From Tenericutes bacterium ADurb.Bin239 (GTDB lineage Bacteria > Bacillota_I > Bacilli_A > RFN20 > CAG-826), in contig MWCB01000001.1 in NCBI GenBank assembly GCA_002069815.1, positions 1,786 to 65,785 of the forward strand: DNA of 64,000 bases, read 5' to 3'. Shown here one piece after another: positions 32,401 through 56,364 of the stretch. Below the pieces are notes generated by a model. That model was given only the letters and a program-made list of their open reading frames with translations, was not told where the DNA came from and searched no databases. Each line of letters opens with the position of its first letter. The stretch's first letter is position 1. A program made the translations under genes and the position numbers.

Positions 32401-32563
32401 TATTTTAATTGACCTAAAATTAGCGAATATTGATCATCCAAGTTACGACTTGCAAGTTGAAAATTACGCTAGGTATTTAAAGAAGGTGTTTAGGTTACCA
32501 GTGAATGCCTATCTGCTTAGCATTTTGCATCTAAAGTATAGAAAGGTGGAGATAAATGAATAA
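29432..32563 (+). CDS. addA: Helicase-nuclease complex subunit A (AddA/RexA, UvrD-type helicase plus RecB-type nuclease)
   Basis: 1043 aa. SF1 helicase motifs are AGAGSGKT, DEYQDT, NYRS, TIHSSKGLEF and LLYVALTRAK. C-terminal nuclease-like IDCFVV...ILIDLKL. Confidence 0.9.
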   Translation: MRMIMMNKTKEDKIVFSPKQEEALSLAKENILVSAGAGSGKTAVLVERIIRILVDKEVPLDRILVLTFTKAGAQEFKNRIKKALREKPEHASKAFAVDNADITTFDAYALKILRKYGYYADLDSDVVNLDQGLELVLMRRYFDEVMEDYYKDPPLAFRYFTKRFLSKKDDKLFELITKFDSQLKLQIDAETYLENYIEKFYSDAKFKAIYKEFNEYVVNTIRKVAQAIKNLNCERHLQKYETFLNKFGQILSFDDYMNDLDSFIYQNRPAGTLRDYPEDRPFANIIKEYIADLKSVQVYESRAKMYEVFQETKGHAAFILEIYRKIRERLAVFKNEKSAYTFSDIAYSAYRLVCIPEVQNELRNQYEYILIDEYQDTSDIQEEFIQKIANNNVYMVGDIKQSIYAFRNANCDIFREKYARYRAGKEGKKVDLNDNYRSRPEVLNAINAILNELMTEDFGSANYKKEHQINQGNKKYDKFKVSNQKVGLEVINYTIPKKNKDEPLANESIRKSFEYETEYIVSDIERKIKEKYQVLDKNGLRDVRYGDFTILLAQGTKFDDIERRFIDAGIPVHVHRDEKASENNINIAINNLLRIYIAYTKDDEPRGYEFRLAVASFLRGFVNNYTDQALFDLLKDENWDFTSDPVLMQIKHLAQTSNHLPVSKIIDKLVTTFDIYGALFNIGDLTQNNMKLSNKLEELENLAALGLDLEEIVNYFGERERIGVEVELKRVKLEKEAVNIMTIHSSKGLEFPIVYYMDLANNFYRMERRQTLTICPKYGFILPEPALNIQKSFLGYLADIRYSIETLSERIRLLYVALTRAKELMVIIHPLEEKIDELKPFEKTNSLKNLLLQSPYYQSLIKEVEIEFLPFKDVEPKKGDFATEFIIKNHGYIFESAKLDFAINEKNDVDEKVLQRGILLHRYFEEYDFVTKSLDYIMAASDREHIRNLVALPLFAGVENGNIYREYEFIDENTNKTYAIDCFVVLADKIILIDLKLANIDHPSYDLQVENYARYLKKVFRLPVNAYLLSILHLKYRKVEINE

Positions 32564-33644
32564 AAAGATTTATACACCGATACATAAGGAAGACTTTAGA
32601 CGACTTCTTCGTCATTACAATGTCCCAGAATCAATTGAAGATAATATTTTATACGATTTATACAGCGAATCAGTTGAATTACTTGTTGCTCACCATGAAA
32701 CGTTTGACAATATACCTTATGTTAACCTTGACCATCAACGCTTGATTCTCCATCTCATTCATGACTACAATTACCGCATGCGAAATTTAGAACTAAATAC
32801 GCGGCTGGAATTGTTAAAGAATGATTTATTTCATAATAAACTTATCAATGTGGTGGTTGATAAATATGGTAGTAGCGCGTTCTTTAAATATGATTCGGGG
32901 ACGTACTTGACCCCATTTTCAATGGAAATATCGACCATTAATGTTTACCTAAATTTCATTATGTTGAAATTACCGTTGCTCCCGCTTGAAAATAGGAGAA
33001 TGGAACTTTTTGCTGAATTACTCCGTAATGCCTTTTCCTATATACATACAATTACCGAATTGTTGGTACGCGGTTTTGAAAAAGAAGCGTTTGCTACGTG
33101 GCGGTCGCTTCATGAATTAGAAGCAACTTTACTTTTGATTCAAGATGATAAAATGTTAAAAGCTTATGAACAACACATCCTTTACTCTCTGGCCTTTAAC
33201 AAACTTGTGCCCAAAGCAGAATGTGATCGAATATTCGTCGAAATCAAAACTAAAATGAAAGAATTAAACTTAAAAAGCAAAGATACTAAAAGGTTTATTG
33301 AATATGGTTGGCTTTTAGCGCATCAAGCCTTTGATATGAATATTCACAAGTTCAATTTTCGTGATGGTGTTCAAACTATTGCTAAGCTTGAAGATAAGCG
33401 TGAAGTATATAAGCTTGCTAGCGAAGTTACCCATAGTTCACCAGTCGCGCTTTTCACTAATCGTCGCTATTTTTTGGCTATGGTACTTGATAATCTTTAC
33501 ACGACATTTTTGCGAATTGAGGCCCTTTTTGCCGAGTTATATGTACAAAATGTTGAAAAATCAGAAGTTGATTTTTATAAAATTGCACGCGATATCTACC
33601 TTGAAGATATCAAACTAGTTCAGAGCCGAATACCAAGAAGATAA
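32556..33644 (+). CDS. Hypothetical all-alpha protein, translationally coupled to addA; paralog of 48861-49934
   Basis: 362 aa. The start ATG lies inside the addA stop region (8-nt overlap). Shares FxxWRSLxExxxTLLLI and YxxASxxxH blocks with the 357 aa protein at 48861-49934. Possibly DUF5677-like (memory only). Confidence 0.6.
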   Translation: MNKKIYTPIHKEDFRRLLRHYNVPESIEDNILYDLYSESVELLVAHHETFDNIPYVNLDHQRLILHLIHDYNYRMRNLELNTRLELLKNDLFHNKLINVVVDKYGSSAFFKYDSGTYLTPFSMEISTINVYLNFIMLKLPLLPLENRRMELFAELLRNAFSYIHTITELLVRGFEKEAFATWRSLHELEATLLLIQDDKMLKAYEQHILYSLAFNKLVPKAECDRIFVEIKTKMKELNLKSKDTKRFIEYGWLLAHQAFDMNIHKFNFRDGVQTIAKLEDKREVYKLASEVTHSSPVALFTNRRYFLAMVLDNLYTTFLRIEALFAELYVQNVEKSEVDFYKIARDIYLEDIKLVQSRIPRR

Positions 33645-47447: not shown

Positions 47448-48090
47448 TATAGTTCACATTGCTTTCTTTGTTGCCTTTTCTTTCTCAGCGGTTACTCTTG
47501 TTTTTCAGTTATCGCTTTACCGCTATAAACAAGATCGGAAATATTCATTTCGAAATGAATTACCATTTGAATTAGTCCAAGGGACAGATGTAAAGTTTAC
47601 TAACTATCATTACATCTTGCTTTTTATTGTGGCGCTGGCCCAAATACTATTTGCTTTTAATTATCTATCACAAATTTATTCATGGTATGAATATTTACTA
47701 GTGGGCAGTCTTGCTTTAAGTGCCATTATGTTTTATCTTTTATTCTTTGTTAAAGTTTTTGAGATAAAGAAGCATATTATCGTCGTAATTTTACAAACGC
47801 TTGCGGTTGTGACCAGTTATTTTGCTTTTGGCCTATTTGCCCATATTAGTCCATTTGGAAAGCAAAATATCGTATTTGGTATTATCGGTTATGTAATTGC
47901 TGCTCTTAGTTTATTAACATTATTAAATCCGCGTTTAAGACGATGGCCAATTATGGATAAAAGAGTACAGCAAGATGGAACGATTTTGATTTTACGTCCG
48001 AAATACTTTATGCTTGCTCTTTATGAATGGGGTTTTATCGCTTTGCAGTTTTTGCTGATGATTATAATGTACGTCTATCTTTATATTTAG
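47440..48090 (+). CDS. Polytopic membrane protein, unknown function
   Basis: 216 aa with about 6 TM helices and an 8-nt overlap with rpe. Occupies the slot where thiN usually follows rpe. Confidence 0.55.
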   Translation: MNNIVHIAFFVAFSFSAVTLVFQLSLYRYKQDRKYSFRNELPFELVQGTDVKFTNYHYILLFIVALAQILFAFNYLSQIYSWYEYLLVGSLALSAIMFYLLFFVKVFEIKKHIIVVILQTLAVVTSYFAFGLFAHISPFGKQNIVFGIIGYVIAALSLLTLLNPRLRRWPIMDKRVQQDGTILILRPKYFMLALYEWGFIALQFLLMIIMYVYLYI

Positions 48091-48107
48091 GGAAGGGATG
48101 AAAAACA

Positions 48108-48140
48108 TAAAAAAAACTCACACTCGTGTGAGCTTTTTTA
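48108..48140. terminator. Bidirectional rho-independent terminator between convergent genes
   Basis: AAAAAA-CTCACA-CTCG-TGTGAG-CTTTTTT. There are A/T tracts on both sides, so it serves both the + strand membrane gene and the - strand rpmB. Confidence 0.75.
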
Positions 48141-48329
48141 TACCTTAGCGGACTTATTAAGTGAGCGATATGCTCGTGCCGACATCCGGACGGTTTGGAC
48201 GCGGCCATCAACTTCAACTTTGTAATTTTGTAAGTTTACGCCCCAGCGCCGTCTCGTTGCGCGAAGTGAGTGACTGCGTTTATTGCCACTTAAGGGTCCT
48301 TTGCCAGATACTGGACAATGTCTAGCCAT
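48138..48329 (-). CDS. rpmB: 50S ribosomal protein L28
   Basis: 63 aa, MARHCPVSGKGPLSGNKRSHSLRATRRRW... Confidence 0.95.
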   Translation of the reverse strand: MARHCPVSGKGPLSGNKRSHSLRATRRRWGVNLQNYKVEVDGRVQTVRMSARAYRSLNKSAKV

Positions 48330-48414
48330 AATTTTTCCTCCCCATTCAATAAATGCTACATTAAGATAACATTTATGTTATAAATTTGCAAATAGAAATG
48401 AATATTTTTGTGTT

Positions 48415-48864
48415 TTAGAACTTAATTTTGGGAAATCTTCGATGAAGTTCATCTTTATCCACGAGATTAGTGCACCGTTCAAGCATCGCCTCGTATACAA
48501 GTTTTTTAGGGTCATGCGCTAAATAACGTTCATCCCCAATCCGGGTGACGAAGCGCATACTTAATTTTTTACTAGAATACACTTCGTCAATATAAATGAT
48601 GTCATCAAATTTGTAATAGAGAATATTGCCACCTTTGTGGTGAACGATTTCGTGCTTTGTAAGTTCGTAATAACTATTCTTATAACCAAACACTAAGTAA
48701 ATAGCGGTAACAACACTCCATCCGATGATGACGAGATAATGATTTAAGGTTGGCGGAAACTTAATTCCGACGATAAGGTAAAAAATAATACTCATTAACA
48801 AGTAGATTGGTAGGTAGATGAGGAGGAGTCCTTTAAAACTAGTGTATATTTTTTTATTTTTCAT
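48415..48864 (-). CDS. Small 2-TM membrane protein with a C-terminal bacterial PH-like (bPH/YdbS-YdbT-like) domain, tentative
   Basis: 149 aa with two adjacent TM helices, then YYELTKHEIVHHKGGNILYYKFDDIIYID, a beta-rich PH-like pattern. ATGA overlap with the upstream 357 aa gene. Confidence 0.55.
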   Translation of the reverse strand: MKNKKIYTSFKGLLLIYLPIYLLMSIIFYLIVGIKFPPTLNHYLVIIGWSVVTAIYLVFGYKNSYYELTKHEIVHHKGGNILYYKFDDIIYIDEVYSSKKLSMRFVTRIGDERYLAHDPKKLVYEAMLERCTNLVDKDELHRRFPKIKF

Positions 48865-49934
48865 GTTGTTTGGATTTTCGCACTAAAATCGATAAAACGC
48901 CCATTAAAGTTTTTGACTTCGGTGCGCACTCCTTGTTCTAATTTTTTGGCATCCGCGAGGTCATTAGTGAATAAGTCACTAATATAGACACGGACCGCTT
49001 CATAAAGTTTGAAATATAAAGTTAGTAAGTATTTTTCAAAATCAATTTCAAGTTTTAAGTCGTCGGGACTTATTAAGTATTCATGAACGAAAAGAGAGGC
49101 AAAGGCGTAATGCGGATATAAGTCGCCCATATTGACCAGTTCAAGAAGTGTCTTCAAGGTGTAGTCTTCATCTTTTTTAATAAGTTCACCTGCCCAACCA
49201 ATGCGTTCGGCGATATAATCAGGTACTCCCCTTTTTCCTAAATGCTGTCTTGTTTCTTTTGATTTATCTTTTTGGACTTGGCGACTAGCGTCTTTGACCT
49301 TGACCCGCATAAGCGCTAAGTTTCGTCTTTCACTAAATTTACCAACGAGATGCTCGTTTTTGTATAAGATTAATAAAGTAGTAGTCGTTTCGAGTAAACT
49401 GCGCCAAATAATAAAGGAGTCATTATAAAACTCGCGCTCAAGGAGCATTATGCCCGACACTAATTCTTGGAAGAAGCGGTCCGTTAAGTTATAGAGTGTT
49501 TTTTGTGGATCTTTAAACTTACTAGCGTCAACTCCCTTAAACTTTTGATAGCGGCGATCAATTAAATTTTCAAAATTAAAGATAATCGGATCAACGTATT
49601 CATCACGCGTAAATGTATGATTAGGATTTTGTTTGGCTTCCTCAGCCTTAATTACGTCTTTAATAATCTTATCGATATGTTGACTATTTTTAAAATATGT
49701 TCGCTGATACTCAATACTATTGTTTTTAATCGTGCGACTATGCCTTTTAATAATGATCTCCGCGAAAACTTCAAAGGACCGAGCGCGAATCCCGAAGGTC
49801 TTCCGATATTCAGGATAAGCATTTTTAATGGCGGTTCTAAAATAGTTAAGCTTTTCTTTCGTATTTGGCGAAATATGGATATCATCACTTAAAAGGCTAG
49901 CAACTGTGTTTTGACTGAGTTCATAATTTGCCAT
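48861..49934 (-). CDS. Hypothetical all-alpha protein, paralog of 32556-33644
   Basis: 357 aa. FYNDSFIIWRSLLETTTTLLILY and YAFASLFVHEY blocks match FEKEAFATWRSLHELEATLLLIQ and YKLASEVTHSS of the addA-coupled protein. Divergent from the SMC-like operon. Confidence 0.6.
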   Translation of the reverse strand: MANYELSQNTVASLLSDDIHISPNTKEKLNYFRTAIKNAYPEYRKTFGIRARSFEVFAEIIIKRHSRTIKNNSIEYQRTYFKNSQHIDKIIKDVIKAEEAKQNPNHTFTRDEYVDPIIFNFENLIDRRYQKFKGVDASKFKDPQKTLYNLTDRFFQELVSGIMLLEREFYNDSFIIWRSLLETTTTLLILYKNEHLVGKFSERRNLALMRVKVKDASRQVQKDKSKETRQHLGKRGVPDYIAERIGWAGELIKKDEDYTLKTLLELVNMGDLYPHYAFASLFVHEYLISPDDLKLEIDFEKYLLTLYFKLYEAVRVYISDLFTNDLADAKKLEQGVRTEVKNFNGRFIDFSAKIQTT

Positions 49935-50060
49935 AAGTTACCGCCTTTCTTTTTAAAATATAAATAAAACTAAATATTTCACTTTTATTATACAAGTTTG
50001 ATACCATTTCCCTTTTTTATATGATAATATAAAACATATAAATGAAGGAGATTATTTTTT

Positions 50061-51476
50061 TTGAGCCTATTTACAATCATTCCCAGTAACTTCTTCTCGA
50101 TCCTCGCGAGCAAAAATAAAGAAATATATGCCGAAGCGCTTCTTTTATTGCACCATTCTATTGAAGATAATGAATTGCTCATTAAGAAGCGTGATTTTAC
50201 TCGTAACCTGCGTGATCGTCTTAACGAGTTAGCGCTTAATGTTGATATGGAAGCGGAAGAAGAAGGAGATGACGATGAAATCGTTAATTATAGCGATAAA
50301 GCGGCTTTTATCGTACGTCGGTTAGAAGAGTGTGGCTGGATTGACGTCGAAGTTAATCCTGACAACTTTGAAGAATATATTGCCCTTCCAAGTTATAGTA
50401 TTAATGTTATCTCGCTTTTAAACGAGTTAGTTAAGGAAAGCACCGCTGAATACGTATCACTTGTTCATGCGACTTATAGTGAACTTAAATTAGAAGATGA
50501 AATGCGGGATGAATTTATGTACGCTACCTTAGTGCGGGCTTTTGAAAATACCAAACGCCTTAATGTTGAATTAATTATGCTGGCCCATAGTATTCGTATT
50601 TTCCAAAATAGACTTGGCAAAGTCTTCAGTACGAATAATATTTTAAGTGACTATTTCGATATATACAAAACACGTGTTAGTGACCGCTATTATCACCCGT
50701 TAAAGACGTTTGATAGTGTTGCTAAATTTAAACGTCCTATTTTACAAATATTACAAAAATGGCTCTATGAAGAAGATATTCGTCAGCAACTAGTGGCGCA
50801 GTCATTAATGTGGAGCCGCAATAAAAACGCGAAAGAAGCTGAAGCTGACATTATTAATAAAATTAACTACATCACTGATATGTATGAACGAGTTAATGAG
50901 ACGATTGGGCAAATTGACCAAAAGCACTACGAATATACGAAAGCGAGTGCTTCAAAGATTCTTTATTTAAATGCGGCGGATAAATCAATTAAAGGACACT
51001 TAGATTTTATCTTCAAGACTTATGCCGAAACTTTAAGTAAAGGCGAAAGTGTGGCGCCAATCTTAAATGGTATTAATCAGACGATAACATTTGCGCAACA
51101 TGGTTATGTTACCCCTGATTCATTAACGCTACCCATCATCCGGCAACTGCGCGGTGAGAGCATTCCAATGTCACTTACCGACTTTGATGATGTCCGCGAT
51201 ATGTTAATGCAAGGCTTTCTTGATGAAACGAGTAATCAATTTTCTAATGATGCCATCTTTGATTTTATGGATTTCGCCTTTGGCGATGAAAGTGAAGTGC
51301 ATATCAGTGATATTCCTTTGCCTAGCTTTGATGCCTTCTTACTTTTAATCCTCGCCACGATTAAAACAAACGATGAAGAATGTTTTTATATCGTTGAAAC
51401 TGATCCTGGGAATGTGAGTAGCCATGGATACCGTTTACCAAATTTACGATTTGTACGAAAGGAGTTAACCTTATAA
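50061..51476 (+). CDS. jetA: JetA/MksF-like (kleisin-type) subunit of an SMC-like complex
   Basis: 471 aa with a TTG start 10 nt after an AAGGAG RBS. Mostly helical with an acidic insert. The call rests on size and on being first in a 471/212/1124 aa operon with kleisin-KITE-SMC order. Confidence 0.5.
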   Translation: MSLFTIIPSNFFSILASKNKEIYAEALLLLHHSIEDNELLIKKRDFTRNLRDRLNELALNVDMEAEEEGDDDEIVNYSDKAAFIVRRLEECGWIDVEVNPDNFEEYIALPSYSINVISLLNELVKESTAEYVSLVHATYSELKLEDEMRDEFMYATLVRAFENTKRLNVELIMLAHSIRIFQNRLGKVFSTNNILSDYFDIYKTRVSDRYYHPLKTFDSVAKFKRPILQILQKWLYEEDIRQQLVAQSLMWSRNKNAKEAEADIINKINYITDMYERVNETIGQIDQKHYEYTKASASKILYLNAADKSIKGHLDFIFKTYAETLSKGESVAPILNGINQTITFAQHGYVTPDSLTLPIIRQLRGESIPMSLTDFDDVRDMLMQGFLDETSNQFSNDAIFDFMDFAFGDESEVHISDIPLPSFDAFLLLILATIKTNDEECFYIVETDPGNVSSHGYRLPNLRFVRKELTL

Positions 51477-51477
51477 T

Positions 51478-52116
51478 ATGTTTGAAGAAACCTTTTTACA
51501 ATTAACACGAGCTGATCAAGAAGCATTTGCAAGAGCGATTAATCAACTCTTGCTTACGAGTTTTATTGTTCGTGATGATTTTGATCGCCGGGAAAAAACA
51601 ATTAAAATTAACCCCACCTATCGCTTTATCGAACGTCATTTTGACTTAATTAATGACTATTTAAGTTATGCGGGATGGCGGGTTGATAAAGATTTAATTC
51701 TTGGGGTTTTTAGTCTTGTTAATGAATATGACCATAATCGATTACGATTTGACCGCGAAGTTAGTCTCGTTCTTTTTGTCTTACGTTTAATTTATGAAGA
51801 AGAACGGAAAGAAGGAGGGCATGTAGGTGATTCGGTTTACCTCACAACGCCGCTTGTTATGAAAGTAATGCATGACCGCGGGATTGGTTTCCCAAATAAA
51901 CGTTTAAGTGGACGCTTAATTGGCCGCTGTTTGAAGGAAATTGCGTCACACAATATCATTGCAAGAGTATCAGGAAGTTATGATGAAGGTAACGTGACAT
52001 TTTACTTACTACCATCAATTACTTTTGCCGTTGATAATGATAAAATCGTTGCAATTAGCGAAGCCTTAGAAAAACTTGCCTTACGTGATGCTGAGGCGCA
52101 AGGTGGTGAATTATGA
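51478..52116 (+). CDS. jetB: JetB/MksE-like (KITE, DUF4194-like) subunit
   Basis: 212 aa, starting 1 nt after the upstream stop. Size and pattern (FIERHFDLINDYLSYAGWRVDKDLILGVFSL, then LSLVLFVLRLIYEEE) fit MukE/MksE/JetB-type tandem winged-helix proteins. Confidence 0.55.
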   Translation: MFEETFLQLTRADQEAFARAINQLLLTSFIVRDDFDRREKTIKINPTYRFIERHFDLINDYLSYAGWRVDKDLILGVFSLVNEYDHNRLRFDREVSLVLFVLRLIYEEERKEGGHVGDSVYLTTPLVMKVMHDRGIGFPNKRLSGRLIGRCLKEIASHNIIARVSGSYDEGNVTFYLLPSITFAVDNDKIVAISEALEKLALRDAEAQGGEL

Positions 52117-55100
52117 AACTATTAAAGACTGTTAAAATCATTAATTGGCACTATTTTTGGAATCAGACGATGAATATTGAAAAGATCGTCTTCTTAACGG
52201 GGGTAAACGCTAGTGGAAAGTCCACGTTAATTGACGCCATGCAAGTCGTTCTCCTCGGTGATACATCGGGTCGCTACTTTAATAAAGCTGCGGCGGAAAA
52301 ATCAAACCGTACGCTCCGCGGCTATCTTCGCGGGGAATTAGGCGACTCACTTGAAGGTGGTTTCCACTATTTACGGAATGGTCGCTTTACTTCTTACATC
52401 GTTTTAGAGTTTTATGATGATGTGCATGACGAATACTTTAATTTAGGAATCGTGTTTGATGTGTTTGATGATGGAGGGGTCGATCACCGTTTCTTTATGC
52501 TTGATGCCCCGATGCCGGCGAATGAATTTATCGTTGATAACGTTCCGCTTGAATATAAAGATTTAAACCAATATTTACAAACCCACTATCCGAATAAATT
52601 TAAGTTTTATGACACAAATCGACAATATCAAGATGCTTTAAAACGTAAACTTGGTAATTTAAAGGATAAATACTTCAGTTTGCTGAAGAAAGCCGTCAGT
52701 TTCTCGCCGATTACTGATATTACAACCTTTATTACTGAATATGTGACTGAATCACAAGGAGCAATTGATATTGCGCCAATGCAAGAGAATATTCTTCAAT
52801 ACAAAAAGTTAGAAGATGAAGCCGCTCTTATGCGCTATAAAGTGGAACGCTTACATGAAATTGCTAAAAACTATGAAGTATATAAAGGACATAAGGAGCA
52901 ACTTACTCTTTTTGAATATGTTTTAGAAAAAGCAACCTTACAAAATGACTTAAATAGATTAGCGACTTATGATAATCAATATCTTGGTTACCAAAAACGC
53001 TTAACCGATATTGAAAGTGAACTAGCCGACTTAGATGTTGATTTAGCCGAACTCAATAAACGACGGGTGAAATTAATTCAAGATAGTTCGACCAATGATA
53101 CATATCGAATAACCGATGAAATTAATGAACATAAAAAAGTCGCCGAAGAAAAAATTAGAAGTCTTAAGTTTCTTAATATGCAAGTGCGAAGCGACTTAGA
53201 AAACTATGTTTTAACCTTTGACCGGCTCGCTAATGAAGTCTTAGAAAAGGTTACTGCCATGGATGAAAAACGGTTAAAGAAGGACGGACTTTTCGCTCGT
53301 GAAGAACTACTAGAAAGCGCCGAAAACATCGTAAAAGAAAATCATCGGATTACGGCGGTCCTTAACAAAGATATTAATGAATTAAGCGAAGCAATGCTTA
53401 ATGACTGGCGCAATGCGCAAGCGAAGTTTAAACAAAACTTAGGGGCTTTCACTTTGAGTCTTGGACGCTTAATTAATGACTACCAAGTAAATGAAGCCAT
53501 TCTTAAACAACAAGAAATTGATTTACGCGGTGGCGGTAAACCCTATGAATATAATCTCCTGCAAGTAAGAAATGAACTTCAAAATAAATTATCAGCGAAA
53601 CATGGCTATAAAGTGGAAGTGAGTATCTTCAGTGACTTAATTGATATTCGCGATCAAAAATGGACCAATGCGATTGAAGGTTACCTTGGTGGTCAACGCT
53701 TCCATCTCTTTGTCGAAGGTCAATATTTCCTAGATGCTTATGACATTTTGAAAGATTTATTACAACAATATAATTATTACGGCACAAATTTGGTTGATGT
53801 CGATCAAATTATTGAACGGCGGTTTAGCGCTATGCCTAATTCCATCGCCGAAGAAATTCTTACGGACCATATCGGCGCCCGGGCTTACGCTGATTTCTTA
53901 CTAGGAAGATTACAAAAGTGTAATACTATTCAAGAAGCGCGAAATAGTGGAAACGGGATTACCCCAGACACTGATTTATATCGTAACTTCACGTTTGGGC
54001 GTATTAATCCTCGTCTCTACCAACAAAAATACATCGGTCGTCAGATTGAAGAAGCGGATATTAATGCGAAAAAAGCTGAACTAGCGGCGCACGGTGCAAC
54101 CCTTCGTTCTTATCAAGAACTCTTGCAAGTGCTCTTACCGGGAAATGATGTTGAAATTGTAAACACGAATGAAATCGCTGCCCTTGGTAGCCAAGTTAAA
54201 CGGATTCAAGAATTACCAAGTCTTGAACAAAGCATTGAATTTTATGAAGAAGAACTCGGTCGGCACGACTTAACTTTGATTGAAGGTATCCATCGCCGCA
54301 TTAACTTAGTCGAAACTGATATTAAAGGGATTGAAAATCAAAAAGCAGGTCTCGTCGAAGAACGCGGGAAGATCTCAACGAACATGCAAATTTTAAAGAA
54401 TGAACGGATGCCCGAAACAAAACAAATTATTCAAGAACGACAAACTAAGCTTGATGAAAGTTATGATGCCTTCTTTATCAGTGATGTCGCCGAGCCTTTC
54501 TTCCAAAATCTAATTGCCGAAGGAAAGAATCCGCTTGATATTAACGCTGAGTACCGGCAAGCATTTAGTAACGCTCTCTATCTTTCTAATAGTGTATTTA
54601 ACCAAGTAAAGAAATTACGGAAAGAGTATGTCGTTGATTATCGCTTAACTTATGACGTTGAAACCGAGCATAACGATGATTTTGCGATGGAATTAAATGA
54701 TCTTTTAGAAGTTAAACTTCCCGAATATGAAGAAAAGATTAATGATGCTTATCGTAAAGCCGTCAAACAATTTAAAGATGACTTCATCTCGAAATTACGG
54801 AGCGCGATTGAAACAGTGGAAGATCAAATTGCCGAACTTAACGAAGCGCTTAGTATGTCAACATTTGGGGAAGACTCGTATCAATTTACCGTTAAACCAA
54901 GTACTATTTATCGGGTTTATTACGATATGATTAAAGATGATTTATTACTGAAAGTAACGGATGACGATAGCGAATTCTTCCAAAAATATGATGATGTTAT
55001 GAAGGATTTATTTGCGCAAATCGTGTTAGCAGGTGATGGCGATAAAAATGCAGCGGTACTCGCTAATGTTGAAAAATTCACCGACTATCGGAACTACTTA

Positions 55101-55487
55101 GAGTTTGACCTAATTGTCCGTAATAAAGATGGTCGTGAACAACGACTTTCACGCGTGCTAATGAAGAAGTCTGGTGGTGAAACCCAAACTCCATTCTACA
55201 TTAGTGTCCTTGCTAGTTTTGCTTATCTCTACCGCGTTAATGAACCCGGCGAACTTAGTAATAGTGCCCGTCTAATTATTTTTGACGAAGCCTTTAGTAA
55301 GATGGATAGTGGGCGGATTAAAGAATCAATTCGCTTATTACGCCGCTTTGGTTTACAAGCAATTATTAGTGCCCCAAGTGATAAAGTCGCGGATATTAGT
55401 CCGCTAGTTGATGAAACGCTAGTTGTCTTACGGGGTAAGAATCACAGTCATGTTCAACTATTTGCCCGCGAAGAGGATTTAACATAA
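52113..55487 (+). CDS. jetC: JetC/MksB-like SMC-family ATPase
   Basis: 1124 aa. N-terminal IINWHYF...LTGVNASGKSTLIDAM (Walker A), about 750 aa of coiled-coil-like sequence, and C-terminal KKSGGETQTPFYISVLASF (signature) plus LIIFDEAFSKMD (Walker B/D-loop). Confidence 0.7.
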   Translation: MKLLKTVKIINWHYFWNQTMNIEKIVFLTGVNASGKSTLIDAMQVVLLGDTSGRYFNKAAAEKSNRTLRGYLRGELGDSLEGGFHYLRNGRFTSYIVLEFYDDVHDEYFNLGIVFDVFDDGGVDHRFFMLDAPMPANEFIVDNVPLEYKDLNQYLQTHYPNKFKFYDTNRQYQDALKRKLGNLKDKYFSLLKKAVSFSPITDITTFITEYVTESQGAIDIAPMQENILQYKKLEDEAALMRYKVERLHEIAKNYEVYKGHKEQLTLFEYVLEKATLQNDLNRLATYDNQYLGYQKRLTDIESELADLDVDLAELNKRRVKLIQDSSTNDTYRITDEINEHKKVAEEKIRSLKFLNMQVRSDLENYVLTFDRLANEVLEKVTAMDEKRLKKDGLFAREELLESAENIVKENHRITAVLNKDINELSEAMLNDWRNAQAKFKQNLGAFTLSLGRLINDYQVNEAILKQQEIDLRGGGKPYEYNLLQVRNELQNKLSAKHGYKVEVSIFSDLIDIRDQKWTNAIEGYLGGQRFHLFVEGQYFLDAYDILKDLLQQYNYYGTNLVDVDQIIERRFSAMPNSIAEEILTDHIGARAYADFLLGRLQKCNTIQEARNSGNGITPDTDLYRNFTFGRINPRLYQQKYIGRQIEEADINAKKAELAAHGATLRSYQELLQVLLPGNDVEIVNTNEIAALGSQVKRIQELPSLEQSIEFYEEELGRHDLTLIEGIHRRINLVETDIKGIENQKAGLVEERGKISTNMQILKNERMPETKQIIQERQTKLDESYDAFFISDVAEPFFQNLIAEGKNPLDINAEYRQAFSNALYLSNSVFNQVKKLRKEYVVDYRLTYDVETEHNDDFAMELNDLLEVKLPEYEEKINDAYRKAVKQFKDDFISKLRSAIETVEDQIAELNEALSMSTFGEDSYQFTVKPSTIYRVYYDMIKDDLLLKVTDDDSEFFQKYDDVMKDLFAQIVLAGDGDKNAAVLANVEKFTDYRNYLEFDLIVRNKDGREQRLSRVLMKKSGGETQTPFYISVLASFAYLYRVNEPGELSNSARLIIFDEAFSKMDSGRIKESIRLLRRFGLQAIISAPSDKVADISPLVDETLVVLRGKNHSHVQLFAREEDLT

Positions 55488-55506: not shown

Positions 55507-56364
55507 ATGGAATTAAAGTTTATTGACGGAATAAGAGCCTATCATGTGCGCTTATCCCGGCGCTATACGCTGGAAGCTATTATCTCCATCTTTGTTTTGT
55601 TCGCCCTAAGCCTAACCCTTATCGTCCTTGAATTATTTACTGAAATAGATTTAAAAGTTCCTTTTTATCGTCTTTTTATTTGGATTACACTTTATGTAGG
55701 ACTCTTTTTATTCATCGTAATATATTTCCCGCTTCGTTATCAAAAGTTACAAAATGCCCTTAACGCCGAATTTTTTAAACGGGCAAGTGCCGTAAAAATT
55801 GATTTAATTCCTAATCCCTTGGGGGGCACAAAGTTTGATTACAACTCGCTTTTAAAAGCGGCAGGTATAAGCGTGCCCCTAACGGGAATAAAAACGATTG
55901 CGCGCTATGAATTTACGAAACGATTATTTCATGTCTTATATTTTAATGATGGGGAAAAAGAGAGTGCTATTATTCATTTACCGATGAAAGAATCACCGTA
56001 CTATTTACAAATTAATAATGGTAATTTTGCTCCGCCTGAACAATATGAAGGGACCCCGATTGTAAAGATTGCGTATGTATCGCCTTACAATCTTCAATAT
56101 TACGCCACAAGTAGCGCCACAAATGCTAAAATATATTTAAGAAAAGAAATTGAAACGCGCTTTGTTAAATTTTTAAAAATTTACGATGCGAAATATCAAT
56201 ATGTGGCGACCTACACTGATGAATTCTTAAAAGTGGAAGGTCTATCATCACCTTTGCGACTTCGACTAGGGGGTCGCTATAATAATGAACGTTACGCTAG
56301 ACGCTTAGCAAGTTTACGCTTGTTACAATCGCTTATGTTAGCGATGCTTGAAAGGGGGAAGTAA
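55507..56364 (+). CDS. 2-TM membrane protein of unknown function, occupying the fourth position of the SMC-like operon
   Basis: 285 aa with a GGAG RBS 19 nt after the jetC-like stop. Two TM helices (about residues 25-45 and 55-78) are followed by a ~200 aa soluble domain. No Toprim or nuclease motif seen. Confidence 0.6.
   Translation: MELKFIDGIRAYHVRLSRRYTLEAIISIFVLFALSLTLIVLELFTEIDLKVPFYRLFIWITLYVGLFLFIVIYFPLRYQKLQNALNAEFFKRASAVKIDLIPNPLGGTKFDYNSLLKAAGISVPLTGIKTIARYEFTKRLFHVLYFNDGEKESAIIHLPMKESPYYLQINNGNFAPPEQYEGTPIVKIAYVSPYNLQYYATSSATNAKIYLRKEIETRFVKFLKIYDAKYQYVATYTDEFLKVEGLSSPLRLRLGGRYNNERYARRLASLRLLQSLMLAMLERGK

What the first reader, a model, noticed from the sequence alone, without database searches (positions are those of the whole stretch)
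48415..49934. Divergent two-gene cassette: 357 aa helical protein plus small 2-TM PH-like membrane protein, next to the SMC-like operon
A 357 aa soluble all-alpha protein and a 149 aa protein are translationally coupled by an ATGA overlap at 48861-48864. The small protein has two TM helices and a beta-rich PH-like tail.

The pair is transcribed divergently from the jetABC-like operon across a 126-bp AT-rich intergenic region. It is wedged between rpmB, the end of a conserved housekeeping cluster, and the SMC-like genes.

A cytosolic protein paired with a tiny membrane protein is a common layout for abortive-infection or toxin-like modules. I recognise neither protein as a characterised family. 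The location beside a Wadjet-like system suggests a small defence islet.
Basis: inference. Interest (0 to 1): 0.6.

Follow-up and report, generated by a model that had tools for sequence, protein, structure and literature searches.

The report
Two unrelated genes fused into one operon
The two overlapping genes are real and expressed, but they are not an ancestral two-gene defence cassette: an uncharacterised DUF5677 gene landed in one genus in front of an older small membrane-protein gene that other relatives carry alone.

Summary
A 357-aa all-helical protein and a 149-aa protein with two TM helices and a PH-like domain overlap by ATGA. They are divergent from jetABC across a 126-bp gap of 19% GC.

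The "defence cassette" reading does not hold.
- **The 149-aa gene is old.** It sits next to rpmB in most genera of this family of small-genome uncultured Bacilli. It is there with jetABC, without jetABC, and without any DUF5677 gene.
- **The 357-aa gene is a Pfam DUF5677 member.** It lies at this spot only in the window's own genus. Its nearest relatives (25-34% identity, five other genera) sit alone at four other housekeeping loci. Some of those genomes lack jetABC. In others the gene lies 135-527 kb from, or on another contig than, the membrane gene.
- **No mobility or defence signal was found.** There is no PADLOC, phage or plasmid match, no GC anomaly and no flanking repeats. dN/dS (0.14-0.20) is close to that of neighbouring housekeeping genes.

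The best reading is a genus-specific operon fusion. The membrane gene has no SD. Elsewhere it looks leaderless; here it is translated by stop-start coupling.

The biochemical functions remain unknown. DUF5677 has no solved fold match and no HEPN motif.

The parts
48861..49934 (-). 357-aa cytosolic all-alpha protein of the DUF5677 family (PF18928 core at residues 153-286). Residues conserved across the wider family are W177, R178, E182, W247, Y276 and H284.
   Evidence: ORF. Pfam score 42.3 bits against a cut-off of 27.1. All 16 subfamily members hit DUF5677. AF2 pLDDT 86.8. Conserved residues. dN/dS is 0.14-0.20.
48415..48864 (-). 149-aa membrane protein ('TM149'): short N-terminal strand, two TM helices, and a cytoplasmic PH-like domain. 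It belongs to a Pfam-less family confined to these uncultured Bacilli.
   Evidence: ORF. AF2 pLDDT 92.4. Foldseek top 50 are all PH domains. No Pfam hit. 147 clusters, all annotated hypothetical, none with a Pfam domain. dN/dS is 0.08-0.14.
48861..48864 (-). ATGA stop-start overlap. TM149 has no Shine-Dalgarno sequence (upstream AAAATCCAAACAAC), so its translation probably depends on coupling.
   Evidence: The overlap is conserved in 8 of 8 genus loci.
49935..50060 (.). 126-bp divergent promoter region at 19% GC. A TATAAT box on the - strand at 49992-49987 lies 52 nt before the DUF5677 start. A TTGATA-16-TATGAT promoter-like site on the + strand at 49998-50025 serves jetA.
   Evidence: The -10 box on the DUF5677 strand is conserved in all 8 genus loci.
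48330..48414 (-). 85-bp gap with rpmB's own promoter-like site (TTGCAA at 48391-48386, 17-nt spacer, TATCTT at 48368-48363) and a strong SD (GGGGAGG). No terminator lies between TM149 and rpmB.
   Evidence: TTGCAA directly upstream of rpmB is seen in four of the seven genus loci that hold rpmB, including two with 0.6-0.8 kb inserted after TM149.
48138..48329 (-). rpmB (L28), the constant downstream neighbour of TM149 in this family. A bidirectional terminator lies at 48110-48139.
50061..55487 (+). jetA-jetB-jetC. This is context, not part of the pair. No JetD is present in the genome.
   Evidence: JetA is present in 125 of 151 genomes of the order.
32556..33644 (+). Second, very divergent DUF5677 paralog (362 aa) directly after addA. 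It shares only the WRSLxE core with the 357-aa protein.

Best explanation
The "cassette" is a genus-specific operon fusion of two genes with separate histories.

**Shown.**
- TM149 is an old resident of the rpmB flank in this family. It faces jetA where jetABC is present and glgC where it is absent.
- In the ancestor of the window's genus, a single DUF5677 gene came to lie between TM149 and its promoter.
- Since then the two genes overlap by ATGA, and the arrangement is fixed.
- The nearest DUF5677 relatives in five other genera stand alone at four other housekeeping loci.

**Inferred.**
- TM149 lacks an SD. In many other genera a TATAAT box sits 6-15 nt before its ATG, so it is probably translated there from a leaderless mRNA.
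- After the insertion, termination-reinitiation at ATGA replaced leaderless initiation.
- The DUF5677 protein most likely acts on its own, as a cytosolic enzyme-like protein. Its invariant R178/E182 (helix 170-192), W247, Y276 and H284 (helix 270-285) would form the active or binding site.
- TM149 most likely is a membrane-anchored adaptor that presents a PH-like domain on the cytoplasmic face.
- Neither protein needs the other, or JetABC.
For: **TM149 without DUF5677.** TM149 lies between rpmB and jetA in genera g7, g8, g9 and g12. It lies between rpmB and glgC in 11 JetA-less genomes examined of six genera.

**Distribution of DUF5677.** Full-length relatives occur in 26 of 301 family genomes and 6 of 48 genera. 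Only the window's genus (11 of 11 sampled) has the jetCBA<>DUF5677-TM149-rpmB order.

**Separation elsewhere.**
- In g68 and g72 all three genes are present, with TM149<>jetA adjacent and DUF5677 135-527 kb away.
- In g74 DUF5677 lies on another contig.
- g79 and g62 have DUF5677 but no JetA.

**Contexts of relatives.** They are tkt-DUF5677-asp23-nusB, pncA...glmS, ABC exporter<>DUF5677...asnA, and upstream of a P-type ATPase. The tkt|asp23 site is empty in the window's genome.

**Coupling and expression.** The ATGA overlap and the -10 box are conserved in 8 of 8 loci. TM149 has no SD. Leaderless-like TATAAT boxes appear in other genera. An RNA contig lies across the junction.

**Selection and mobility.** Purifying selection is similar to rpe, rsgA and the neighbouring 216-aa membrane-protein gene. 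There is no PADLOC, phage or plasmid match, no GC anomaly and no flanking repeats.
Against: - Eight of eight conserved overlaps over deep divergence (41% identity) could also mean that selection keeps the two proteins co-expressed in this genus.
- DUF5677 is patchy (6 of 48 genera) and occupies five different loci. That is accessory-gene behaviour, typical of conflict genes.
- A preprint found DUF5677 enriched beside serine recombinases in Bacillota (PMC12632615).
- The leaderless inference rests on -10-like boxes and my own ORF start calls, not on mapped transcript starts.
- dS is near saturation, so the dN/dS values are rough.
- The biochemical roles are inference only.
Confidence: 0.62

Rival explanations
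1. The pair is a two-gene abortive-infection or toxin-like defence module. The cytosolic DUF5677 protein would sense or act, and the small membrane protein would be the effector or partner. Together they would form a defence islet beside Wadjet.
For: - Translational coupling is conserved throughout the genus.
- The DUF5677 family is enriched next to serine recombinases in Bacillota (PMC12632615). Earlier AI notes describe it as prophage cargo.
- The gene is patchy and changes locus between genera.
- In family f7 the same TM149|jetA gap holds variable cargo, including a WYL-WCX regulator plus an unknown 455-aa gene.
Against: - TM149 predates the pairing. It is kept alone in at least 13 sampled genera, including genomes with neither jetABC nor this DUF5677 subfamily.
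- DUF5677 relatives elsewhere have no TM149 neighbour.
- There are no PADLOC hits for either protein or for 16 relatives, and no phage or plasmid homologs.
- The pair is fixed in 11 of 11 genus genomes, with housekeeping-like dN/dS and native GC.
- The one DUF5677 ORF tested in E. faecalis was not among the five that protected.
Confidence: 0.12
2. The pair, or TM149 alone, is an accessory of the JetD-less JetABC complex. It could be a membrane tether, a regulator or a replacement effector, co-regulated from the shared divergent promoter region.
For: The divergent TM149<>jetA adjacency is conserved in three families of the order. Of 19 genomes with both genes, 15 have them directly adjacent and 3 within 4 kb, although the gene on TM149's other side differs between families. 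In the window's genus the 112-134 bp shared promoter region is conserved.
Against: - TM149 is retained in 15 JetA-less genomes of 9 genera. In the 11 of these examined, the jetABC block is gone and TM149 faces glgC.
- JetA occurs in more than 100 sampled genomes without TM149.
- DUF5677 relatives occur in JetA-less genera, and are unlinked where JetA is present.
- There is no PADLOC Wadjet model hit for either protein.
- TM149 is unrelated to the 285-aa 2-TM protein that follows jetC.
Confidence: 0.1
3. The DUF5677 protein is a stand-alone HEPN-type RNase (HepS-like abortive-infection nuclease) that happens to be co-transcribed with TM149.
For: - Earlier AI notes on other DUF5677 genes suggested a HEPN-like fold and an Rx4H motif.
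- The protein is all-alpha, with invariant R and H residues.
- Csx1 appears in the Foldseek list.
Against: - In this subfamily the motif is I-W-R178-S-L-L-E182-T-T-T. No His lies 4-6 residues after R178.
- Across the wider family only R, E, W, Y and H284 are invariant, and H284 lies 106 residues from R178.
- The Csx1 hit has E 1.1 and probability 0.10. No HEPN structure, HepS included, is among the 50 best-listed hits, and none has E below 0.4.
- No HEPN Pfam family hits any of 16 members.
Confidence: 0.08

Closest known systems
Pfam DUF5677 (PF18928), a family of unknown function
   Same: The domain hit is above the gathering score (42.3 vs 27.1 bits). All 16 full-length relatives hit it. The core residues are shared with the wider family: WR-x-L-x-E, G-W, and Y...AS..VH.
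   Different: - This is a narrow full-length subfamily: 12 clusters at 50% identity among 1.84 billion proteins.
- It has its own 150-residue N-terminal and 70-residue C-terminal helical extensions.
- It is chromosomal and stable within a genus rather than on a mobile element.
- No function is known for any member. The one member tested for phage defence was not among the positives (PMC12632615).
Bacterial membrane-anchored PH-domain proteins (bPH_2/YdbS-YdbT type, DUF2244, DUF6585)
   Same: The architecture is the same: an N-terminal two-helix membrane hairpin followed by a small PH-like beta-sandwich capped by a C-terminal helix. Six of 29 relatives weakly match DUF6585.
   Different: The window's protein has no significant Pfam match, and bPH_2 was not hit. 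The fold match to PH domains is consistent but weak in E-value. An extra N-terminal strand is predicted. The comparison with YdbS/YdbT rests on my own knowledge and was not tested.
Type I Wadjet JetABCD
   Same: The neighbouring jetA, jetB and jetC are clear members by PADLOC and Pfam.
   Different: Neither protein of the pair matches any Wadjet component. JetD is absent from the genome. The pair's distribution is independent of jetABC.
HepS, the single-protein HEPN anticodon nuclease of prophage Gifsy-1 (PMC13043305)
   Same: It is also a single all-helical protein of similar size, with conserved Arg and His residues. Earlier notes proposed it as an analogue for DUF5677.
   Different: HepS has a canonical RX4-6H motif (R100/H105). 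This protein has none, and Foldseek against the PDB gives no HEPN match.

Membership tests
DUF5677 (PF18928) | Profile HMM match above Pfam's gathering score | tested here: met
   42.3 bits against a cut-off of 27.1, residues 153-286. 16 of 16 subfamily members match, best E 1.4e-15.
DUF5677 (PF18928) | Family-wide conserved core residues (WRxLxE, GW, Y..AS..VH) | tested here: met
   R178, E182, W247 and H284 are invariant, and W177 and Y276 at least 90% conserved, in an alignment with 16 distant family representatives and the in-window paralog.
HEPN superfamily | Rx4-6H catalytic motif | tested here: not met
   R178 is followed by S-L-L-E-T-T-T. No His lies at +5 to +7 in any of the 21 or 16 aligned members.
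HEPN superfamily | Structural similarity to solved HEPN domains | tested here: not met
   Foldseek against the PDB gives a best E of 0.43. Csx1 scores E 1.1 with probability 0.10. The profile search against PDB sequences finds nothing.
PH-like fold / bacterial PH (bPH) membrane proteins | Seven-strand-type beta-sandwich capped by a C-terminal helix, similar to solved PH domains | tested here: inconclusive
   All 50 best Foldseek hits are PH domains, with probability mostly 0.9-1.0 (lowest 0.69). E is only 8e-3 to 0.17 and TM-score about 0.35 on the full-length query.
PH-like fold / bacterial PH (bPH) membrane proteins | Sequence match to a bPH Pfam family (for example bPH_2, PF03703) | tested here: not met
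   The window protein has no Pfam hit at E below 0.1. Relatives hit only DUF6585 (6 of 29), DUF6560, 8xMP and EbsA, all weakly.
Wadjet (JetABCD) | Match to a JetA, JetB, JetC or JetD model | tested here: not met
   There are no PADLOC hits for either protein of the pair. JetD_C is absent from the whole genome.
Known anti-phage defence systems (PADLOC 2.0) | Any component model match | tested here: not met
   No families match either protein. For the 16 DUF5677 relatives there are only two chance-level hits.
Two-gene toxin-antitoxin / abortive-infection module | The two partners co-occur and stay adjacent across genomes | tested here: not met
   Adjacency is found only in one genus. Each gene occurs without the other in many genera.
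Mobile genomic islet | Deviant composition, flanking repeats, mobility genes, or homologs on phages or plasmids | tested here: not met
   GC is 0.366 and 0.349 against 0.369 for the window. There are no meaningful repeats, no phage or plasmid tblastn hits, and no integrase in the flanks.

The most novel reading that the evidence does not exclude
The gap between TM149 and jetA would be a long-lived chromosomal landing site for accessory or immune cargo beside a nuclease-free JetABC. In this reading the DUF5677 protein is a domesticated single-protein immune sensor or effector with a new active site (R-E...W...Y...H, not HEPN). In this genus it has been wired by stop-start coupling to a PH-domain membrane protein, so the two now work as a new cytosol-to-membrane abortive-infection pair.
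Probability: 0.1. Interest if true: 0.6.

Novelty: new member of a known kind. Interest (0 to 1): 0.25.

Why it matters
Mostly this is a caution. A tidy, translationally coupled pair of a soluble and a tiny membrane protein beside a defence-type operon looks like a toxin or Abi module. Comparative context shows it to be a secondary fusion of unrelated genes.

Three smaller points could be useful.
- **A candidate natural experiment in translation initiation.** An SD-less, apparently leaderless gene may have switched to stop-start coupling when another gene landed in front of it.
- **A Pfam-less protein family.** The 2-TM PH-like family (147 or more clusters) is confined to small-genome uncultured Bacilli from digesters and sludge.
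- **A stable DUF5677 lineage.** This subfamily is chromosomally stable and under purifying selection. Its conserved residues give a clean mutagenesis target for a family whose function is still unknown.

Tried and rejected
**Sequence and structure searches that found nothing**
- PDB sequence searches with the single protein and with profiles.
- Foldseek of the DUF5677 model against PDB and BFVD. The best E values were 0.43 and 0.87, all generic helical bundles.
- PADLOC, NCBIfam and PHROGs for both proteins.
- tblastn against phage and plasmid collections.
- An Rfam scan of 47900-50200.
- A repeat search for target-site duplications around the DUF5677 gene, which gave only chance-level AT-rich matches.

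**Ideas tested and dropped**
- TM149 is not related to the 285-aa 2-TM protein after jetC: hhalign probability 0.3%.
- The idea that the 357-aa protein is a recent duplicate of the addA-linked paralog was rejected. Only a 27-residue motif aligns.
- The palindrome ATAACATTTATGTTAT at 48366-48381 as an operator was rejected. It is conserved only in the closest relative.

**Technical failures**
- The search for related loci with the 16-sequence alignment failed for lack of a conserved stretch. A 5-sequence alignment worked.
I used NG86 dN/dS between orthologs instead.
- Model coordinates are not exposed to the Python box, so I could not test 3D clustering of the conserved residues.
- Relocation versus fresh acquisition of the DUF5677 gene could not be settled. 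The g79-type locus (ABC exporter/asnA) has no clear counterpart in this genome.

Full report
**Observation.** The two ORFs exist as described. The 357-aa gene lies at 48861-49934 (-) and the 149-aa gene at 48415-48864 (-). They overlap in ATGA at 48861-48864. The gap to jetA (49935-50060) is 126 bp at 19% GC. jetA, jetB and jetC are clear Wadjet-type genes by Pfam and PADLOC. A JetD_C domain is absent from the whole 1.29-Mb genome. rpmB lies 85 bp downstream of the small gene.

**The 357-aa protein.**
- It matches Pfam DUF5677 (PF18928) at 42.3 bits against a cut-off of 27.1, over residues 153-286.
- It matches nothing in PADLOC, NCBIfam or PDB sequences.
- An AlphaFold2 model built from 21 homologs has pLDDT 86.8 and pTM 0.78. 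It has 17 helices and no strands.
- Foldseek finds no credible match in the PDB (best E 0.43) or in BFVD (best E 0.87).
- Within the full-length subfamily the invariant polar residues are H65, R178, E182, Y276, S280, H284, Y307, E333 and R337.
- Against distant DUF5677 representatives and the in-window paralog, only R178, E182, W247 and H284 stay invariant. W177 and Y276 are at least 90% conserved.
- The motif reads I-W-R-S-L-L-E-T-T-T, so there is no HEPN Rx4-6H. HepS, the HEPN protein that earlier notes proposed as an analogue, has a canonical R100/H105 motif. No HEPN family or structure matches here.

**The 149-aa protein (TM149).**
- It has no Pfam family.
- A model built from 29 relatives has pLDDT 92.4. 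It shows a short N-terminal strand, helices 10-32 and 40-63, six strands and two C-terminal helices.
- All 50 best Foldseek hits in the PDB are PH domains (Rtt106, Bcr, TFIIH p62, SSRP1, GRK2). Probability is mostly 0.9-1.0, lowest 0.69, but E is only 8e-3 to 0.17.
- A profile search of 5.8 billion proteins finds 147 clusters of 146-175 aa. All are annotated hypothetical, none has a Pfam domain, and the few that carry an organism label come from uncultured Bacilli.

**The pair is not an evolutionary unit.**
- *Within the window's genus.* The order glgDC-(285 aa)-jetCBA<>DUF5677-TM149-rpmB-...-rpe-rsgA is found in every locus examined, down to 41% DUF5677 identity. The ATGA overlap is kept in 8 of 8 loci and the gap to jetA is 112-134 bp.
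- *Other genera with jetABC.* TM149 lies between rpmB and jetA with no DUF5677 gene (genera g7, g8, g9, g12).
- *Genomes without jetABC.* In the 11 examined, of six genera, TM149 faces glgC directly.
- *Full-length DUF5677 relatives.* They occur in 26 of 301 family genomes and 6 of 48 genera. In the five other genera (25-34% identity) the gene stands alone at four other loci:
  - tkt-DUF5677-asp23-nusB-xseA (g68, g62);
  - between pncA/DEAD-box helicase and glmS (g72);
  - upstream of a P-type ATPase (g74);
  - divergent from an ABC exporter pair near asnA (g79).
- *Genomes with all three genes.* In g68 and g72, TM149<>jetA remain adjacent and DUF5677 lies 135-527 kb away. In g74 it lies on another contig.
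- *Genera without JetA.* g79 and g62 have DUF5677 but no JetA.
- *An empty site.* The tkt|asp23 site is empty in the window's genome, with about a 400-bp gap across a contig break.

**No sign of a mobile or defence islet.**
- GC of both genes (0.366 and 0.349) equals that of the window (0.369).
- There are no flanking repeats and no integrase nearby.
- There are no phage or plasmid homologs.
- There are no PADLOC hits, even for 16 relatives.
- dN/dS is 0.14-0.20 for DUF5677 and 0.08-0.14 for TM149. That is like rpe (0.10-0.16), rsgA (0.04-0.13) and the neighbouring 216-aa membrane-protein gene, and above jetA and jetB (0.04-0.08). dS is close to saturation, so these values are rough.
- A preprint reports DUF5677 enriched beside serine recombinases in Bacillota. 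The DUF5677 ORF it tested was not among the five of nine that gave phage protection (PMC12632615).

**How the operon probably works.**
- DUF5677 has an SD (GAAAGG). A TATAAT box on its strand at 49992-49987 lies 52 nt upstream. A -10 box at that position is conserved in all 8 genus loci.
- TM149 has no SD (AAAATCCAAACAAC-ATG).
- In genera without the insert, TM149 also lacks an SD in most cases, and a TATAAT box often lies 6-15 nt before its ATG (for example L066, L076, L079, L080). That is the signature of a leaderless or near-leaderless mRNA.
- My inference is that the DUF5677 gene landed between TM149 and its promoter, and that stop-start coupling at ATGA replaced leaderless initiation.
- rpmB has its own promoter-like site and a strong SD. 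TTGCAA directly upstream of rpmB is seen in four of the seven genus loci that hold rpmB. Two of these have 0.6-0.8 kb of extra DNA between TM149 and rpmB. No terminator separates TM149 from rpmB in the window.
- Metatranscriptome contigs from digester and sludge samples cover the DUF5677 interior, the TM149 3' half and rpmB. One 211-nt contig spans the junction (48705-48916). This is thin evidence: depth is about 2, and DNA carry-over is possible.

**Relation to JetABC.**
- JetA is present in 125 of 151 sampled genomes of the order. My JetD and JetA searches agree.
- The divergent TM149<>jetA adjacency is conserved in families f1, f3 and f7. Of 19 genomes with both genes, 15 have them directly adjacent and 3 within 4 kb. 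The gene on TM149's other side differs between families.
- This is the one observation that could point to a link.
- Against a link, TM149 persists in 15 JetA-less genomes, and JetA occurs in more than 100 genomes without TM149.
- I read the adjacency as old synteny, with about 10% for a real link.

- In family f7 (g38) the TM149|jetA gap holds different cargo in each of three genomes. Two hold BspA-type LRR lipoproteins. One holds a WYL-WCX regulator with an unknown 455-aa gene.
- Together with the DUF5677 insertion, this suggests the gap tolerates or attracts insertions.
- DUF5677 is clearly an accessory, locus-hopping gene at family level.
- I therefore keep about 12% for a two-gene defence module, and 10% for the boldest reading.

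**Verdict.** The locus is a genus-specific operon fusion of a DUF5677-family gene with an older PH-like membrane-protein gene. The biochemical functions of both remain unknown, and I give my functional assignments as inference only.

Noticed in passing
L066:1462, L069:1375, L076:1959, L079:1498, L080:1977, L083:1459, L086:1495 (TM149 starts in other genera): TM149 homologs in genera without the DUF5677 insert mostly lack an SD and have a TATAAT box 6-15 nt before the ATG. This suggests leaderless or near-leaderless mRNAs.
   Followed up: partly
L118:8155-11142; L117:6363-6941; L119:8044-10755: In family f7 (genus g38) the gap between the TM149 homolog and jetA holds different cargo in each of three genomes. 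One has a WYL-WCX regulator, an unknown 455-aa protein and a 61-aa beta-flower-like peptide. The others have BspA-type LRR lipoproteins of 193 aa and 904 aa. The gap may be an insertion hotspot.
   Followed up: partly
L067, L069, L071, L072, L073, L075, L076, L084, L090-L092: In JetA-less genomes of the family, the whole jetABC plus 285-aa membrane-gene block is absent and TM149 faces glgC directly. The block is therefore a clean presence/absence unit between TM149 and glgC.
   Followed up: partly
window 32556-33644 (+): A second, very divergent DUF5677 paralog (362 aa) overlaps the end of addA. It shares only the WRSLxE core with the 357-aa protein.
   Followed up: partly
L002 (between 9517 and 10331) and L054 (between TM149 and rpmB): In two species of the genus, 0.6-0.8 kb is inserted between TM149 and rpmB. 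One insert carries a 163-aa ABC-ATPase fragment on the opposite strand, the other a small membrane ORF. rpmB keeps its own TTGCAA promoter-like site.
   Followed up: no
window 48366-48381: The perfect 7+2+7 palindrome ATAACAT-TT-ATGTTAT lies in the spacer of the putative rpmB promoter. It is conserved only in the closest relative, so it is probably not an operator.
   Followed up: yes
own genome C1:161335-162843 and C21:1-1165: tkt is split across a contig break (C1 end / C21 start). About 400 bp separate it from asp23. This is the site where genera g68 and g62 carry their DUF5677 gene, and it is empty here.
   Followed up: partly
window 48875: The one metatranscriptome contig that spans the ATGA junction lacks one base at 48875, 11 nt before the DUF5677 stop. 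This is probably a strain difference or an assembly error in a T-rich stretch.
   Followed up: no
window 55507-56364 (+): The 285-aa 2-TM protein after jetC has no Pfam or PADLOC family and is unrelated to TM149 by profile comparison.
   Followed up: partly
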